This document shows, in pieces, positions 19,805 to 25,996 of a DNA stretch of 64,000 nucleotides. The notes under the pieces were generated by a model. It was not told where the DNA came from. It ran no database searches and saw only the letters and a program-made list of their open reading frames with translations. The DNA lies in NCBI RefSeq assembly GCF_050320075.1, contig NZ_CP190018.1. One strand, 5' to 3'. Source of the stretch: Escherichia coli (GTDB taxonomy: Bacteria; Pseudomonadota; Gammaproteobacteria; Enterobacterales; Enterobacteriaceae). A program made the position numbers and the translations under genes. Each line of letters opens with the position of its first letter. Position 1 is the first letter of the stretch.

Positions 19805-19908
19805 GGTGAACAGTGGTGAACAGACGGTGAACAGTCATTACTGCGATTGTTCACCCTTTAACTTACTGTATTACTTATCTTTTTTCTTATGGTGAACAGA
19901 GGTGAACA
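19805..19908. other. ori-like iteron cluster: six copies of the TGTTCACC octamer (either strand) in about 105 bp
   Basis: GGTGAACA at 19805, 19815, 19826, 19891, 19901 and TGTTCACC at 19849; about 5 kb from the crr-like repeats. Confidence 0.65.
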
Positions 19909-19987
19909 GTAAAATATAAAAAAACAAACAGTAAGCCGGTTTTTCCTGCGACCTTTTCCTGGCTTGCCGGTCTGAGGATGAGTCTCC

Positions 19988-20005
19988 TGTGTCAGGACTG
20001 GCACA
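19988..20005 (+). promoter_or_regulatory. Candidate Ogr/Delta activator site (TGT-N12-ACA) of a P2/P4-type late promoter upstream of sid
   Basis: TGTgtcaggactggcACA centred about 80 bp upstream of the sid ATG. Confidence 0.5.
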
Positions 20006-20077
20006 TCTGCAATGCGTCGTGTTGTTGTCCGGTGTACGTCACAATTTTCTTAACCTGAAGTGACGAGGAGCCGGAAA

Positions 20078-20812
20078 ATGTCTGACAACACCATCCCTGA
20101 ATATCTGCAACCCGCACTGGCACAACTGGAAAAGGCCAGAGCCGCCCACCTTGAGAACGCCCGCCTGATGGATGAGACCGTCACGGCCATTGAACGGGCA
20201 GAGCAGGAAAAAAATGCGCTGGCGCAGGCCGACGGAAACGACGCTGACGACTGGCGCACGGCCTTTCGTGCAGCCGGTGGTGTCCTGAGCGATGAGCTGA
20301 AACAGCGCCACATTGAGCGCGTGGCACGCCGGGAGCTGGTACAGGAATATGACAATCTGGCCGTGGTGCTGAATTTTGAACGTGAACGCCTGAAAGGGGC
20401 GTGTGACAGCACGGCCACCGCCTACCGGAAGGCACATCATCACCTTCTGAGTCTGTATGCAGAGAATGAGCTGGAACACGCCCTGAATGAAACCTGTGAG
20501 GCGCTTGTCCGGGCAATGCATCTGAGTATCCTGGTACAGGAAAATCCGCTCGCCAACACCACCGGCCATCAGGGCTACGTCGCACCCGATAAAGCTGTCA
20601 TGCAGCAGGTGAAATCATCGCTGGAACAGAAAATTAAACAGATGCAAATCAGCCTCAGCGGTGAGCCGGTTCTCCGGCTGGCAGGACTGTCAGCGGCAAC
20701 ACTCCCGCACATGGATTATGAGGTGGCAGGCACACCGGCACAGCGCAAGGTGTGGCAGGACAAAATAGACCAGCAGGGAGCAGAGCTTAAGGCCAGAGGG
20801 CTGCTGTCATGA
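20078..20812 (+). CDS. sid: Sid-like capsid size determination (external scaffold) protein, 244 aa
   Basis: Starts MSDNTIPEYLQPALAQLEKARAAHLENARLMDE; 244 aa from the ATG at 20078 (RBS GAGGAG) equals P4 Sid as recalled; followed by delta and psu. The ORF-track start at 20060 is six codons too far upstream. Confidence 0.75.
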   Translation: MSDNTIPEYLQPALAQLEKARAAHLENARLMDETVTAIERAEQEKNALAQADGNDADDWRTAFRAAGGVLSDELKQRHIERVARRELVQEYDNLAVVLNFERERLKGACDSTATAYRKAHHHLLSLYAENELEHALNETCEALVRAMHLSILVQENPLANTTGHQGYVAPDKAVMQQVKSSLEQKIKQMQISLSGEPVLRLAGLSAATLPHMDYEVAGTPAQRKVWQDKIDQQGAELKARGLLS

Positions 20813-21054
20813 TGCGCTGCCCTTTCTGTCGTCATTCAGCGCATACCCGCACCAGCCGGTATGTGAGTGACAATGTCAAAGAAAGTTATCTGCAGTGCCA
20901 GAATATTTACTGTTCGGCGACATTTAAAACGCATGAGTCAATTTGTGCCGTGATTCGTTCTCCGGTCACGGAGGAAAAACCAGCACCGGCAAGCACAGCA
21001 CCGGCTGTTGTCCGAAAAGTTAAAGGCTGTTACAGCTCACCATTCAACCATTAA
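20809..21054 (+). CDS. Ogr/Delta-family zinc-finger late-gene transcription activator (81 aa, single domain)
   Basis: C-X2-C-X22-C-X4-C pattern (CPFC ... CQNIYC); start overlaps the sid stop (ATGA). Confidence 0.75.
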   Translation: MMRCPFCRHSAHTRTSRYVSDNVKESYLQCQNIYCSATFKTHESICAVIRSPVTEEKPAPASTAPAVVRKVKGCYSSPFNH

Positions 21055-21068
21055 TCAGGAGACGGGGT

Positions 21069-21641
21069 GTGACCACAATGTCATTACAGCAGGCTTTTGA
21101 GGTCTGCCAGAATAACAAAGCGGCATGGCTGCAACGCAAAAATGAGCTGGCTGCAGCCGAACAGGAATATCTGCGGCTTCTGTCCGGGGAAGGCAGAAAC
21201 GTCAGCCGCCTGGACGAATTACGCAATATTATCGAAGTCAGAAAATGGCAGGTGAATCAGGCCGCCGGTCGTTATATTCGTTCGCATGAAGCCGTTCAGC
21301 ACATCAGCATCCGCGAGCGGCTGAATGATTTTATGCAGCAGCACGGCACAGCACTGGCGGCCGCACTGGCACCGGAGCTGATGGGCTACAGTGAGCTGAC
21401 GGCCATTGCCCGAAACTGTGCCATACAGCGTGCCACAGATGCCCTGCGTGAAGCCCTTCTGTCCTGGCTTGCGAAGGGGGAAAAAATTAATTATTCCGCG
21501 CAGGATAGCGACATTTTAACGACCATCGGATTCAGGCCTGACGCGGCTTCGGTGGATGACAACCGTGAAAAATTCACCCCTGCGCAGAACATGATTTTTT
21601 CGCGTAAAAGTGCGCAACTGGCATCACGTCAGTCTGTGTAA
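21069..21641 (+). CDS. psu: Psu-like protein (polarity suppression / capsid decoration), 190 aa
   Basis: 190 aa as for P4 Psu; sequence (QQAFEVCQNNKAAWLQRKNELAAAEQEYLRLLSGEGRNVSRLDELRN) matches my recollection of Psu; last gene of the sid-delta-psu block. Confidence 0.75.
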   Translation: MTTMSLQQAFEVCQNNKAAWLQRKNELAAAEQEYLRLLSGEGRNVSRLDELRNIIEVRKWQVNQAAGRYIRSHEAVQHISIRERLNDFMQQHGTALAAALAPELMGYSELTAIARNCAIQRATDALREALLSWLAKGEKINYSAQDSDILTTIGFRPDAASVDDNREKFTPAQNMIFSRKSAQLASRQSV

Positions 21642-21805
21642 AATTCCCCGAAAATCCGCCCGTTTTTACTGAAAAAAGCCATGCATCGATAAGGTGCATG
21701 GCTTTGCATGCGTTTTCCTGCCTCATTTTCTGCAGACCGCGCCATTCCCGGCGCGGTCTGAGCGTGTCAGTGCAACTGCATTAAAACCGCCCCGCAAAGC
21801 GGGCG

Positions 21806-21824
21806 GGCGAGGCGGGGAAAGCAC
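21806..21824. other. P2/P4-type cos site (19-nt cohesive-end sequence GGCGAGGCGGGGAAAGCAC)
   Basis: Exact match to the P2-type cohesive end as recalled, immediately downstream of psu and preceded by GC-rich hairpins. Confidence 0.7.
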
Positions 21825-21842
21825 TGCGCGCTAGGAACGAAA

Positions 21843-24563
21843 TTATTTGTAATTATTTATTATCTCTTCAATCTTCAAAAGTGCTTGTGAGAAATCACTT
21901 AATTTCCGTGTGTTGACTATATAGCGTAATAAACCTCTGATTGTCTCTGCTTCTGAGTTAAATCTAAATCCTTTATAGTTTTCAACAAGCTTGGATACTT
22001 TCTCAGGAAGATTGTCATAGCTGTCTGAAATCTCTGATGCTAATAAAAATAATTCAAATTTAATCTTTCTTTCTTCATTGAAATCAGTTGTGGAAATATT
22101 TTTGATAAATGATTTTATTTTATCTCTATTCTTTTCTGTTGATATTCTGTACAGATCATATAGTATTGTTTCAGCAGCTCTTGCTTTATCTGTATTCGGA
22201 TAAGAACTAATTTCATGAAGTAATTTATCGACCTTGCTGTCGTCTTCTATATTAACGCCCAGTTTTTTGGCTACTGAAAAAATATTAGCAAGGCCTCTAT
22301 TGACTATAGCTATCACCTCATACCTACCAAGGTTTCTACTTATTAACTTATCGAGAATCGTGTATATTAAAGTTTTTATGCTGTCAGTGGATAAAGTTTC
22401 ACTGTGGGTGTTGTACCTTATAACGACATATTCGGAAATAGCATCATAGAATGCTAGGTTGTGGTATGAGGACTTTAAAGTGTCGTTTAATGTTTTTAAT
22501 ACTACCGCGTCTTGCTCTGTGGTTATTTTCATTAAAGATAGTAGTTTTAATGCGTTGATTAACTTTCCTTCTATAGGGTTGAGAAACGTAGCGAACTTGC
22601 TATATGACTTCGCTAGGTTTTGCAGTACAGTATTTATTAACCAATCTAATTCTTTGGGTTGAACAGACAGCGATAATAGTTTTTTATCTTCTTTCCTTAG
22701 TATAAGAGATAGGGTTTTATTATCAATGTATTTAATGCATGAATATAATTCTAATCTTGTTAGAGAAATCTCGTCTTTATCAGAATCCTTGATTATTTTT
22801 ATTTCAATGAATTTGCGAATCACATCCTTGAATTCTTTATAAACATCAATTAAACATCCATTTTTTACAACAAAAATTATAAGGTTTTCGAAAAGAAATT
22901 CCGTTTTATGAAGATCCCCGTCAACTAATAACTTTGTATTTCTTTTTCTTATATCGCTATACTTTGTTAATAATGAGCTAACGGTGTAGTGAAGATTTAA
23001 TAAATAATTAAAGGTTACTAAATCATAGATTACGGAGACGGTTTTTTTTATATTTCTCGGTAAGTTATCATATAATTCATGAATTTTATTCTCCTCAAGA
23101 GTTGAGTATCTTTCTCTATTAATTGAAAAATCATACTTCAATCTATTCAAAATAATATTTTGATTGAAAAGCGATATGAGAATATTTGCATAGTCCTTTT
23201 GTCTGATCTCTTCTGATAATTCCTCCTCTATAATACTGTAAGCCTCATCGTATTTATTTAACTGGAAGCAATTATATTTCTTAGTCTTGTCTATACTATT
23301 TGCAACCTTATGGGGGCGTGTATAGGTAACTATTTCGTTATAGTTGAAATTAATTTCCTTATCTATTTTAATTAATGAATCATTTGGTAGCACTTCAGTA
23401 ATCAGTAGCACTTCATCATGTTTATCGTTTAAAACAATACCATATATACTTGCTTTTTTTAATATAAAAAATAATTTTTGGAGATGCGGCTTATAGTCTT
23501 TAACTTTTTTATCATTACTGAGTATACTCAAAAACTTCTTATAAAATCCTCTTAGCTCTATATTATTATCATTAGAGGTTACTTCGGTGTCATAAAATTG
23601 CAATAAAGCTTTTGGTCCATTGTCATCAATATACATTAAACCGCAATTAGTGAAACATCTGGTAACTTGTTCAGCAAGTATTGCATTTAACGATTGAAGA
23701 GATCTCACTCTTGAATAAATAGCATTAATTATTTCGATATCATCTAAGTCTGCACATAGTTCTAGGCTATTTAGGCTATGCAGGAAAGTATATAACTTGT
23801 TTGAATATGAATTGTTATTGAAAGGTTTGATTGTTTCATCGGTTAAAATAATAGTGGTTATACCATGACTTTCAAGATATTTTCTTTGAGCAGGAATATC
23901 TTCGAATACTACTAAATACATAGGGGGTCTAACAGATGAATGATTCTGAGTCCATTTAATTATTTGCTTTAGATCTATATCATTATATGAATACCCCAAA
24001 AATAGCACAGTATGGGTGGAAATAACACTTTTAACATAATTTTCAATTAAGGGAAAATTGAAGCTATAATTTAAGTAATCATCTTCTTTAAAGACGATGT
24101 TGTGATTTTTAAAATCACCATGCATTTTTATCAATTTTTTGCCAAGGTAAGATTTCATCAAATCTTTGTCACTGCTTATTATATTATAAAAGTAAGATTT
24201 GGCATTTATAGCTGCTTCAAGCAAAGTGTCCCAATTCGTTGTGATAACAGAGTGAGGATTCAGTTTAAATATTAGATCGTGAATCTTTGAATGGGGAACA
24301 TTTTCAGGAAAGAAATCTTTGATTCTTTTGTAGTAAAGATGCTCACCAAATGTGAGGTAATAAAGCTGTGCTATTTTTAAATAATCTGATTCATCTTTGA
24401 TATTGAGATCTGAAATGAGAGTGTCAATTAAGTCCCCCCATGAAGGCATTTTGATAGTTTTTGTTTCAGAGGATTTTGAAACACCAGCCCCTACAAAAAT
24501 AGCTAAAGACTCCTCATCTTTTGCTCTTAAAATACTAGCTATATGTTTGTTTAGCAAATCCAT
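21843..24563 (-). CDS. Cargo gene in the satellite cos-int slot: 906-aa protein with N-terminal SIR2-like domain and long helical C-terminal region; candidate antiphage NAD+-depleting defence protein (DSR-like)
   Basis: N-terminal motifs FVGAGVS, VITTNWD, KMHGDF, LFLGYSYNDIDL resemble SIR2_2-type domains; the remaining ~650 aa are low-complexity helical repeats. Strongly AT-rich relative to the prophage backbone. Sits between cos and int. Confidence 0.55.
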   Translation of the reverse strand: MDLLNKHIASILRAKDEESLAIFVGAGVSKSSETKTIKMPSWGDLIDTLISDLNIKDESDYLKIAQLYYLTFGEHLYYKRIKDFFPENVPHSKIHDLIFKLNPHSVITTNWDTLLEAAINAKSYFYNIISSDKDLMKSYLGKKLIKMHGDFKNHNIVFKEDDYLNYSFNFPLIENYVKSVISTHTVLFLGYSYNDIDLKQIIKWTQNHSSVRPPMYLVVFEDIPAQRKYLESHGITTIILTDETIKPFNNNSYSNKLYTFLHSLNSLELCADLDDIEIINAIYSRVRSLQSLNAILAEQVTRCFTNCGLMYIDDNGPKALLQFYDTEVTSNDNNIELRGFYKKFLSILSNDKKVKDYKPHLQKLFFILKKASIYGIVLNDKHDEVLLITEVLPNDSLIKIDKEINFNYNEIVTYTRPHKVANSIDKTKKYNCFQLNKYDEAYSIIEEELSEEIRQKDYANILISLFNQNIILNRLKYDFSINRERYSTLEENKIHELYDNLPRNIKKTVSVIYDLVTFNYLLNLHYTVSSLLTKYSDIRKRNTKLLVDGDLHKTEFLFENLIIFVVKNGCLIDVYKEFKDVIRKFIEIKIIKDSDKDEISLTRLELYSCIKYIDNKTLSLILRKEDKKLLSLSVQPKELDWLINTVLQNLAKSYSKFATFLNPIEGKLINALKLLSLMKITTEQDAVVLKTLNDTLKSSYHNLAFYDAISEYVVIRYNTHSETLSTDSIKTLIYTILDKLISRNLGRYEVIAIVNRGLANIFSVAKKLGVNIEDDSKVDKLLHEISSYPNTDKARAAETILYDLYRISTEKNRDKIKSFIKNISTTDFNEERKIKFELFLLASEISDSYDNLPEKVSKLVENYKGFRFNSEAETIRGLLRYIVNTRKLSDFSQALLKIEEIINNYK

Positions 24564-24575
24564 TGTATATACCTC

Positions 24576-25739
24576 TCAATATAATTTATCTGAATACCAT
24601 TGCATCATTTTTTTTCTATGTTCAAGATATTGAGCATGATTGTAAGTCCCTCGGATTCTGTTTTTATCAACATGTGCCAATTGTATTTCAATCCATGCGC
24701 TATCAAACCCTTGTTCGTGCAATATTGTCGACATGGTATGCCGAAAACCGTGACCTGTAGCACGGCCTTTGTAGCCAATTAACTCAATCACTTGTGAAAC
24801 ACTTTCTTTTGAGATTGGCTTGCTGCGGTTGTTCCTGCCAATAAAGATGTAAGGGTAATGGCCGGTAATAGGTTTGAGCTGTTTGAAAAGGTCAACTACC
24901 TGAGTAGATAAAGGAACAATGTGAGGTCTACGCATTTTCATACGTTCCGCTGGTATCTCCCATATACCTTTTTCGAGGTCTACTTCTTCCCACGTAGCAA
25001 AGCGCATCTCCTGCGTTCTTACACCAGTCAGCATGACTATCTTCGTAGCATTTTTGGTGATGATGCTACCGGTATACGCTTCAAGATCTCGAATAAAATG
25101 AGGCAACTCTTCAGCGGATAAAAATGGATGGTGTTTTTGCTTGGGAACGGCCAGAGCGATAGCTAAATCAGGTGCAGGATTGTACTCAGCACGGCCAGTT
25201 ATGATTGCATAGCGATAAACCTCACCGCATCTTTGACGCACCTTGCGTGTTTTCTCTAGTGCTCCACGTTTTTCGATTCGTCGTAATACTTCAAGCAGTT
25301 CTAATGGTTTGATTTCACTGATAGGACGTTTACCAATGAACGGGAAGACATCTTGCTCGAATGTCTTAATGATTTCTTCTCGATAGGCCACAGTCCAGCG
25401 GTCAGCTTTGTTGGTATGCCATTCTCGACATATTGCTTCGAAAGAATTTTCTGTTGATAGCTTTTGGGCGAGTCTTAAAGCTTTGCGTTCCTCTACCGGG
25501 TCAATGCCATTAGCAACCTGCTTACGGGCGATATCACGCTTCTCACGTGCTTCTGCGAGGCTTACTAAATCGTAGCTGCCAAATGACATTAACCGCGCTT
25601 TCCCTGCAAACCGGAAACGGAAACGCCAGCCTTTCGAGCCATCGGGATTGATAAGCAATGACAGACCTTGTCCATCGTTCAATGTGTATGGCTTGTCTTG
25701 TGGTTTTGCACGTTTGATCTGTATATCGGTGAGAGCCAT
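24576..25739 (-). CDS. int: P4-family tyrosine integrase (387 aa)
   Basis: N-terminal MALTDIQIKRAKP...GKARLMSFGSYDLVSLAEAREKR and C-terminal catalytic region (HGFRHTMSTILHEQG ... RGTYNH); adjacent to the tRNA target. Confidence 0.9.
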   Translation of the reverse strand: MALTDIQIKRAKPQDKPYTLNDGQGLSLLINPDGSKGWRFRFRFAGKARLMSFGSYDLVSLAEAREKRDIARKQVANGIDPVEERKALRLAQKLSTENSFEAICREWHTNKADRWTVAYREEIIKTFEQDVFPFIGKRPISEIKPLELLEVLRRIEKRGALEKTRKVRQRCGEVYRYAIITGRAEYNPAPDLAIALAVPKQKHHPFLSAEELPHFIRDLEAYTGSIITKNATKIVMLTGVRTQEMRFATWEEVDLEKGIWEIPAERMKMRRPHIVPLSTQVVDLFKQLKPITGHYPYIFIGRNNRSKPISKESVSQVIELIGYKGRATGHGFRHTMSTILHEQGFDSAWIEIQLAHVDKNRIRGTYNHAQYLEHRKKMMQWYSDKLY

Positions 25740-25901
25740 GTGTATAACTGAAAACTACTTATAAAAAATCTATACACATTACTATACATATTTTTCGCGG
25801 ATTTAGGGAGACGATCTCGGACTGTTACGGATAAGATGATTATTCATCATATTGAATATAAAGGGTTTTATGGATCATCTCGGAACTGGCTGGATGAAGT
25901 T

Positions 25902-25996
25902 TGGCGGAAGATCACAGGAGTCGAACCTGCCCGGGACCGCTGGCGGCCCCAACTGGATTTGAAGTCCAGCCGCCTCACCGGAGACGACGATCTTCC
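25902..25996 (-). tRNA. selC: tRNA-Sec (selenocysteine tRNA), intact, 95 nt
   Basis: Reverse complement matches my recollection of E. coli selC from GGAAGATCGTCGTCTCC... to ...GATCTTCCGCCA. Confidence 0.95.

What the first reader, a model, noticed from the sequence alone, without database searches (positions are those of the whole stretch)
19805..19908. ori-like array of six TGTTCACC iterons about 5 kb from crr
Six octamer iterons in both orientations lie within about 105 bp, between the vis/AlpA-like gene and the sid promoter. Together with crr and an apparently intact 777-aa alpha gene, this indicates the replication module is complete, so the element could replicate as a plasmid.
Basis: partly seen in the sequence, partly recalled or inferred. 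Interest (0 to 1): 0.45.

Follow-up and report, generated by a model that had tools for sequence, protein, structure and literature searches.

The report
Known P4 satellite replication origin
The six-octamer cluster is the already well-characterised replication origin (ori1) of satellite phage P4, sitting in an intact P4-type prophage integrated at the selC tRNA gene of E. coli SMS-3-5, so the finding is correct but ordinary.

Summary
Six exact TGTTCACC octamers lie at 19805-19908, five on one strand and one on the other. The window has 14 in all, against 2.07 expected by chance, and five more lie in the crr 4.7 kb away. The cluster is the origin of replication of phage P4. The GenBank record X51522 annotates six "ori type 1 repeats" with the same strands and the same offsets (0, 10, 21, 43, 86, 96). 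The vis-sid intergenic region is 97% identical to P4, and none of the differences touches the iteron block.

The rest of the oriI replicon is also present:
- a crr with two 120-bp repeats;
- an alpha gene 772/777 identical to P4, whose origin-binding domain is 100% identical to crystal structure 1KA8;
- a cnr gene 100% identical to P4.

The element is bounded by 23-bp att repeats at selC. It keeps the cos site, the CI immunity RNA and vis, and it carries its own integrase. In place of P4's gop/beta/cII region it carries a SIR2-family gene.

The same iteron layout is kept in eight other P4-type elements. The origin region occurs in 1006 of 5426 complete E. coli genomes and never on a plasmid. 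Plasmid replication is plausible but conditional and was not tested. Novelty: already known.

The parts
14641..14663 (.). att core copy at the crr end of the element, a duplicate of the 3' end of selC
   Evidence: A 23-bp exact direct repeat, TTTGGCGGAAGATCACAGGAGTC, matches 25900-25922.
14794..15094 (+). crr (cis replication region): two ~120-bp direct repeats carrying five exact and five one-mismatch type I iterons
   Evidence: It aligns base for base with P4 4291-4590, annotated 'crr (cis required region for replication)'. The repeats are and the iteron list.
15140..17473 (-). alpha gene: primase, SF3 helicase and origin-binding initiator, 777 aa
   Evidence: It is 772/777 identical to P4 alpha. 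Pfam finds Zn_Ribbon_Prim, Toprim_3, D5_N, DUF5906 and Pox_D5. Residues 671-770 are 100% identical to PDB 1KA8.
17488..17808 (-). cnr (ORF106), the copy-number regulator of the P4 replicon
   Evidence: It is 106/106 identical to P4 ORF106 and matches Pfam DUF5375. Its role is named in PMC8628076.
18924..19011 (-). CI immunity RNA (Rfam C4 family), with its target sites at 19148-19200
   Evidence: Rfam RF01695 scores 76.2 bits and RF03163 50.8 bits, both above their gathering scores.
19259..19525 (-). vis (ORF88), an AlpA-family excision regulator
   Evidence: It is 98.9% identical to P4 ORF88 and matches Pfam Phage_AlpA.
19628..19645 (-). TGT-N12-ACA dyad, the presumed Delta/Ogr site of the leftward late promoter PLL
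   Evidence: The sequence TGTTCCGGCAGCCTTACA was read directly. Assigning it to PLL rests on my knowledge of P2/P4 late promoters and was not tested.
19671..19700 (+). three 10-bp 'ori type 2 repeats' (CCACTTAAAG TCATTTAAAG CCACTTAAAG)
   Evidence: They are identical to P4 9176-9205, annotated 'ori type 2 repeat'. They are not conserved in other P4-type elements.
19805..19908 (.). ori1 core: six type I iterons (TGTTCACC), five on the - strand and one on the + strand, with a 35-bp 80% A+T tract at 19856-19890
   Evidence: The strands and offsets equal the six 'ori type 1 repeat' features of P4 at 9310-9413. The layout is conserved in eight other elements.
19990..20007 (+). TGT-N12-ACA dyad upstream of sid, the presumed Delta/Ogr site of Psid
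   Evidence: The sequence TGTGTCAGGACTGGCACA was read directly. The assignment is from my knowledge and was not tested.
20078..20812 (+). sid, the capsid size determination gene
   Evidence: It is 98% identical to P4 Sid over 244 aa.
20809..21054 (+). delta: an 81-aa protein with a single Ogr/Delta zinc-finger domain (P4 Delta is a 166-aa double domain)
   Evidence: Pfam Ogr_Delta. It is 51% identical to residues 1-45 of P4 Delta.
21069..21641 (+). psu, the polarity suppression and capsid decoration gene
   Evidence: It is 95.7% identical to P4 Psu.
21806..21824 (+). cos cohesive-end 19-mer GGCGAGGCGGGGAAAGCAC
   Evidence: It is identical to nt 1-19 of the linear P4 record. Homology to P4 ends about 26 nt after this point.
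21843..24563 (-). 906-aa SIR2-family cargo gene in the psu-int hotspot, replacing P4 gop/beta/cII
   Evidence: Pfam SIR2_2. PADLOC matches the ThsA SIR2 region over the N-terminal ~200 aa only. RefSeq names it 'SIR2 family protein'.
24576..25739 (-). tyrosine integrase, 387 aa
   Evidence: Pfam Arm-DNA-bind_3, Phage_int_M and Phage_integrase. It is 38% identical to P4 Int.
25902..25996 (-). tRNA-Sec (selC), the integration target, holding the second att core copy at 25900-25922
   Evidence: ARAGORN, Rfam RF01852 and the repeat.

Best explanation
The array is ori1, the replication origin of a P4-type satellite prophage. The element spans about 11.3 kb (window 14641-25922) and is integrated at selC in E. 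coli SMS-3-5.

Mechanism, taken from P4 (inferred here, not shown):
- The element's alpha protein binds the TGTTCACC type I iterons through its C-terminal winged-helix domain. It binds both at ori1 and at the crr 4.7 kb away, which is required in cis.
- The phased iterons assemble alpha on one face of the helix, on both sides of the 35-bp A+T-rich tract.
- The SF3 helicase part of alpha opens and unwinds the DNA, and its Toprim primase part makes the primers. Bidirectional theta replication then starts at ori1 without host DnaA or DnaG.
- Cnr binds alpha and restrains initiation, which sets copy number in the plasmid state.

Shown here: the cis sites are identical to those of P4, the DNA-binding domain of alpha is identical, every replicon part is intact, and the iteron layout is conserved across the family.

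Inferred from P4 biochemistry and genetics: binding, the ori-crr interaction, the initiation steps and plasmid maintenance.
For: - Window 14794-21800 is 97.6% identical to P4 X51522 4291-11619.
- The P4 record annotates 'origin of DNA replication' and six 'ori type 1 repeat' features at 9310, 9320 and 9331 (-), 9353 (+), and 9396 and 9406 (-). The offsets and strands equal those in the window.
- The vis-sid intergenic alignment shows all six octamers unchanged. Only two substitutions fall in the spacers, both in the A+T-rich tract.
- The crr is base-for-base equivalent to that of P4.
- Alpha is 772/777 identical to P4 alpha. Residues 671-770 are identical to PDB 1KA8. PMC2777425 cites that structure as the 'Phage P4 origin-binding domain'.
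- Cnr is 100% identical to P4.
- Across eight other P4-type elements the layout 0, 10, 21, 43, 86, 96 is kept. This includes strain GF3-3, whose alpha is only 85% identical and whose flanking intergenic DNA cannot be aligned. That argues for selective constraint on the array itself.
- No DnaA box lies in ori or crr.
- PMC8628076 states that alpha is essential for P4 replication and that cnr controls plasmid copy number. It cites Ziegelin et al. 1993 for origin recognition by alpha.
Against: Nothing in the sequence argues against it. No binding or replication assay can be run with these tools. Five amino-acid differences from P4 alpha lie outside the origin-binding domain, and their effect is unknown. 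Free plasmid forms of this replicon are absent from complete E. coli genomes and from PLSDB. The plasmid mode, as opposed to lytic-cycle replication, may therefore be rare in nature.
Confidence: 0.95

Rival explanations
1. The array is a fossil origin in a defective, permanently resident prophage. The sequence is retained only because it was acquired recently from a P4-type element, and it no longer fires.
For: P4-type elements are found only in chromosomes (PMC8628076). Delta is a single-domain variant and the integrase differs from P4.
Against: Every replicon component is full length and 99-100% identical to functional P4. The att repeats, cos, vis, int, sid, psu and the CI RNA are all intact. 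The iteron layout stays conserved where the flanks have diverged, which indicates ongoing selection.
Confidence: 0.03
2. The octamer cluster serves mainly as an operator. Alpha, or another protein, binds there to regulate the divergent late promoters PLL and Psid that flank it, and replication is secondary.
For: The array lies between two TGT-N12-ACA dyads at 19628-19645 and 19990-20007. Iterons 3 and 4 form an 11-bp inverted repeat.
Against: The same octamers recur in the crr, downstream of alpha and far from any promoter. The P4 record annotates the site as the origin. The hairpin-like inverted repeat has no T-run and follows simply from two oppositely oriented iterons.
Confidence: 0.02
3. 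The octamers are clustered by chance in an A+T-rich intergenic region.
For: None.
Against: About 0.0034 copies are expected in 104 bp and six are seen, giving P of about 2e-18. The layout is conserved across the family.
Confidence: 0

Closest known systems
Bacteriophage P4 ori (ori1) of the oriI replicon (GenBank X51522 nt 9310-9413; with crr nt 4291-4590, alpha, cnr)
   Same: It has six TGTTCACC type I iterons with the same strands and spacings, and a 35-bp A+T-rich tract. The type 2 repeats upstream are identical. The position between vis and sid, the crr architecture and the 4.7-kb ori-crr distance also match. Alpha is 99.4% identical, its origin-binding domain 100% and cnr 100%.
   Different: There are a few substitutions in spacer and flanking DNA: two in the A+T tract and several upstream. 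The host element differs from P4 outside the replicon. It has an 81-aa single-domain delta, a SIR2-family cargo gene instead of gop/beta/cII, and an integrase 38% identical to P4 Int that targets selC rather than the P4 site.
P4-like satellite family as defined by de Sousa & Rocha (PMC8628076)
   Same: All seven core components (int, psu, delta, sid, alpA/vis, epsilon, alpha) are present in the canonical order. Cnr lies between epsilon and alpha, and variable cargo lies in the psu-int hotspot.
   Different: No difference affects membership. The cargo is particular to this element.
Iteron-type theta plasmid origins (for example pSC101, R6K, F, P1)
   Same: It has short, helically phased direct and inverted repeats bound by the element's own initiator, next to an A+T-rich tract. 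Copy number is restrained by a negative regulator.
   Different: The initiator is a primase-helicase fusion, not a Rep/winged-helix dimer that recruits DnaB. No DnaA box lies in ori or crr. A second, distant cis site (crr) is required.

Membership tests
P4 oriI replicon (ori1 + crr + alpha + cnr) | Six type I iterons TGTTCACC in the arrangement annotated for P4 ori (three direct, one inverted, two direct; offsets 0, 10, 21, 43, 86, 96) | tested here: met
   the strands and offsets are identical to P4 9310-9413.
   19856-19890 is 35 bp and 80% A+T.
P4 oriI replicon (ori1 + crr + alpha + cnr) | crr: two ~120-bp direct repeats with type I iterons just downstream of alpha, about 4.5-5 kb from ori | tested here: met
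   14794-15094 is colinear with P4 4291-4590 and carries five exact and five one-mismatch iterons, as in P4.
P4 oriI replicon (ori1 + crr + alpha + cnr) | Alpha initiator with a Zn-ribbon/Toprim primase, an SF3 helicase and a C-terminal winged-helix origin-binding domain | tested here: met
   772/777 identical to P4 alpha, and residues 671-770 are identical to PDB 1KA8.
P4 oriI replicon (ori1 + crr + alpha + cnr) | cnr copy-number regulator upstream of alpha | tested here: met
   106/106 identical to P4 ORF106.
P4 oriI replicon (ori1 + crr + alpha + cnr) | Alpha binds the iterons, and ori plus crr supports alpha-dependent replication | not testable with these tools
   This needs footprinting and a replication assay. 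It is inferred from the identity of the cis sites and of the binding domain.
P4-like satellite (core set of PMC8628076) | [quoted passage not shown] | tested here: met
   The definition is given.
P4-like satellite (core set of PMC8628076) | Bounded by att repeats at a tRNA gene and carrying a cos site | tested here: met
   (23-bp repeat at selC), and (cos 19-mer identical to P4).
DnaA-dependent iteron plasmid origins | DnaA box(es) adjacent to the iterons | tested here: not met
   no TTWTNCACA match within 19640-19960 or 14794-15094.

The most novel reading that the evidence does not exclude
In this element the ori1/crr pair might fire before or without excision when a P2-type helper infects. 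That would amplify in situ the adjacent SIR2-family defence gene, and perhaps flanking chromosome such as selC, as a dosage-based boost to defence. Nothing examined here supports this beyond the co-location of an intact replicon and a defence cargo gene.
Probability: 0.04. Interest if true: 0.4.

Novelty: already known. Interest (0 to 1): 0.08.

Why it matters
It matters little as a discovery, because the P4 origin, its type I iterons, the crr and alpha are long described and annotated in GenBank. There are two practical points. First, this SMS-3-5 prophage looks like a complete and probably mobilisable P4-type satellite that carries a SIR2-family cargo gene. Second, RefSeq annotation leaves the origin, crr, cos and promoters unmarked, and shows only a 'hypothetical protein' under the region. 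Mapping P4 features onto such elements would improve the annotation of roughly a fifth of complete E. coli genomes.

Tried and rejected
- I tried to retrieve the primary P4 replication literature: Ziegelin 1993 (PMC413647), Lindqvist 1993 (PMC372931), Christie & Dokland 2012 (PMC3518693) and Tocchetti 1999 (by DOI). None is held. Details attributed to them are from memory and are marked as such.
- Full-text searches for the octamer, 'type I iterons', 'ori1' and 'cis replication region' gave no paper describing the origin itself.
- The sigma-70 promoter scan of 19450-20150 found nothing. This is expected for activator-dependent late promoters, so it says nothing either way.
- The one terminator-like hit, 19826-19855, is just iterons 3 and 4 in inverted orientation with no T-run. 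I rejected it as a terminator.
- I searched PLSDB for plasmid-borne copies. The only long matches are 4.8- and 5.4-Mb records, which are evidently chromosomes. The other matches cover about 108 bp of the C4/CI RNA region.
- I tried to link the selC integrase to retronphage phiR73, a lead from memory. That phage is not in the phage collection, and the best integrase matches are about 48% identical, so the link remains untested.
- I did not run the large metagenome or genome-collection scans, because the identification was already unambiguous.

Full report
**Observation.** Reading 19500-20300 and searching for the octamer confirm six exact TGTTCACC copies. They start at 19805, 19815 and 19826 on the minus strand, 19848 on the plus strand, and 19891 and 19901 on the minus strand. 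The whole window has 14 exact copies against 2.07 expected from dinucleotide-preserving shuffles, and none of 100 shuffles reached 14. Six copies in 104 bp, where 0.0034 are expected, has a Poisson probability of about 2e-18. No extra one-mismatch copies lie within 19640-19960. Start-to-start spacings are 10, 11, 22, 43 and 10 bp, so all copies sit near whole helical turns. The 35 bp between the fourth and fifth copies are 80% A+T. Five more exact copies and five one-mismatch copies lie at 14817-15089 inside two ~120-bp direct repeats, 4.7 kb to the left.

**Identity.** Window 14794-21800 is 97.6% identical to bacteriophage P4 (X51522, nt 4291-11619). That record annotates an 'origin of DNA replication' and six 'ori type 1 repeat' features at 9310, 9320 and 9331 (-), 9353 (+), and 9396 and 9406 (-). 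Both the offsets (0, 10, 21, 43, 86, 96) and the strands equal those in the window. The vis-sid intergenic region aligns at 97% identity. All six octamers are unchanged, and only two substitutions fall within the iteron block, both in the A+T-rich spacer. The three 'ori type 2 repeats' of P4 are also present and identical, at 19671-19700. The repeats at 14794-15094 align base for base with the P4 'crr (cis required region for replication)', and P4 has the same five exact iterons there. The array is therefore the P4 origin (ori1), not merely something ori-like.

**The trans-acting parts.**
- The 777-aa ORF at 15140-17473 (-) is 772/777 identical to P4 alpha. Pfam finds Zn-ribbon primase, Toprim, D5_N, SF3 helicase-type and Pox_D5 domains.
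- Residues 671-770 of alpha are 100% identical to PDB 1KA8. PMC2777425 cites that structure as the winged-helix 'Phage P4 origin-binding domain'. The protein domain that reads the iterons and the iterons themselves are thus both unchanged from P4.
- ORF106 (cnr) at 17488-17808 is 100% identical to P4. PMC8628076 names it the controller of copy number in the plasmid stage, and names alpha as essential for P4 replication. It cites Ziegelin et al. [quoted passage not shown]

**The element.** The window is the E. coli SMS-3-5 chromosome (NC_010498.1; 100% identity over the vis-sid region). A 23-bp direct repeat (14641-14663 and 25900-25922) overlaps the 3' end of tRNA-Sec. It bounds an element of about 11.3 kb. 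The order of parts, left to right in the window, is:
- att;
- crr;
- alpha;
- cnr;
- orf151;
- epsilon;
- the kil/CI region;
- vis;
- ori;
- sid;
- delta;
- psu;
- cos;
- a SIR2-family gene;
- int;
- att within selC.

Several other features are intact:
- The cos 19-mer at 21806-21824 is identical to nt 1-19 of P4, and homology to P4 stops about 26 nt later.
- The CI immunity RNA (Rfam C4, 18924-19011) and its target sites are present.
- Two TGT-N12-ACA dyads, at 19628-19645 and 19990-20007, flank the origin. From my knowledge of P2/P4 late promoters they are the activator sites of PLL and Psid. I did not test this.

The differences from P4 all lie outside the replicon. Delta is an 81-aa single Ogr-type domain rather than P4's 166-aa double domain. 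A 906-aa SIR2_2-domain protein replaces gop/beta/cII. The integrase is only 38% identical to P4 Int.

**Comparative evidence for constraint.** The vis-sid region occurs in 1006 of 5426 complete E. coli genomes, at 1210 places, all chromosomal. I aligned the origin from P4 and seven further elements spread down the identity ranking.
- All keep the iteron block and its spacing, while the upstream type 2 repeat region varies.
- In strain GF3-3, alpha is 85% identical and the rest of the intergenic DNA cannot be aligned. The six sites still keep offsets 0, 10, 21, 43, 86 and 96, with one mismatch in the last site.
- Strain 00-3076 has a seventh iteron from a 10-bp duplication at the left edge.

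This pattern is what a functional protein-binding array would show.

**Mechanism.** Taken from P4, and marked as inference here. Alpha binds the phased type I iterons at ori1 and at the crr through its C-terminal winged helix, on both sides of the A+T-rich tract. Its helicase opens the DNA and its primase primes, so theta replication starts without DnaA. Consistent with that, no DnaA box lies in ori or crr. Cnr binds alpha and limits initiation.

From memory, and not retrievable here: Flensburg & Calendar 1987 defined the crr. Ziegelin et al. 1993 showed alpha binding to the type I iterons of ori and crr. Tocchetti et al. 1999 limited ori1 to about 123 bp containing the six iterons and a 35-bp A+T-rich region, and found that deleting iterons or inserting 6-10 bp abolished function.

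It is supported. 'Could replicate as a plasmid' is a reasonable inference, but it is conditional on excision and on escape from CI-RNA immunity. Neither my searches nor PMC8628076 find P4-type replicons on plasmids in sequenced genomes.

**Rivals.** Three alternatives have little or no support: a fossil origin in a dead prophage, an operator for the flanking late promoters, and chance.

**Verdict.** The observation and the interpretation are both correct, and the feature is already known. Interest is low.

Noticed in passing
window 21843-24563 (-): A 906-aa SIR2_2-domain protein sits in the psu-int cargo hotspot of the satellite. Only its N-terminal ~200 aa match known defence models (ThsA SIR2 region, PADLOC E 4e-27). 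The remaining ~650 aa have no Pfam or PADLOC match. It may be a single-gene defence system that these libraries do not classify.
   Followed up: partly
window 20809-21054 (+): Delta is an 81-aa single Ogr/Delta zinc-finger protein, 51% identical to the first half of P4's 166-aa double-domain Delta. Every neighbouring gene is 96-100% identical to P4, which suggests this one gene was replaced by recombination.
   Followed up: partly
window 14721-14742 and 25739-25790: TTATACACAT / TTATACATAT-type decamer repeats lie next to both att copies (14721-14730 and 14733-14742; CTATACACAT and CTATACATAT near 25770-25792). They are probably arm-type binding sites of the selC-specific integrase.
   Followed up: no
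window 14398-14562: RefSeq annotates a fragment of a RhuM-family gene, missing both termini, just outside the att copy. It is probably a remnant of an earlier island at selC.
   Followed up: no
L005 (E. coli 00-3076, NZ_CP027584.1), origin region: This P4-type element has a seventh type I iteron, from a 10-bp duplication of GGTGAACAGT at the left edge of the array, and a G-to-A change in the fifth iteron. It is a natural variant that could test how strict the iteron count and layout are.
   Followed up: no
L012 3500-3600 (E. coli GF3-3, NZ_CP053259.1): This diverged P4-type element, which carries DRT3 cargo, seems to have only one crr repeat unit, with one exact and four one-mismatch iterons, rather than two 120-bp units.
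   Followed up: partly
window 18900-19007: About 108 bp around the CI (C4-family) RNA are 82-83% identical to sequences on large Klebsiella, Raoultella and Enterobacter plasmids. No other part of the element matches true plasmids.
   Followed up: no
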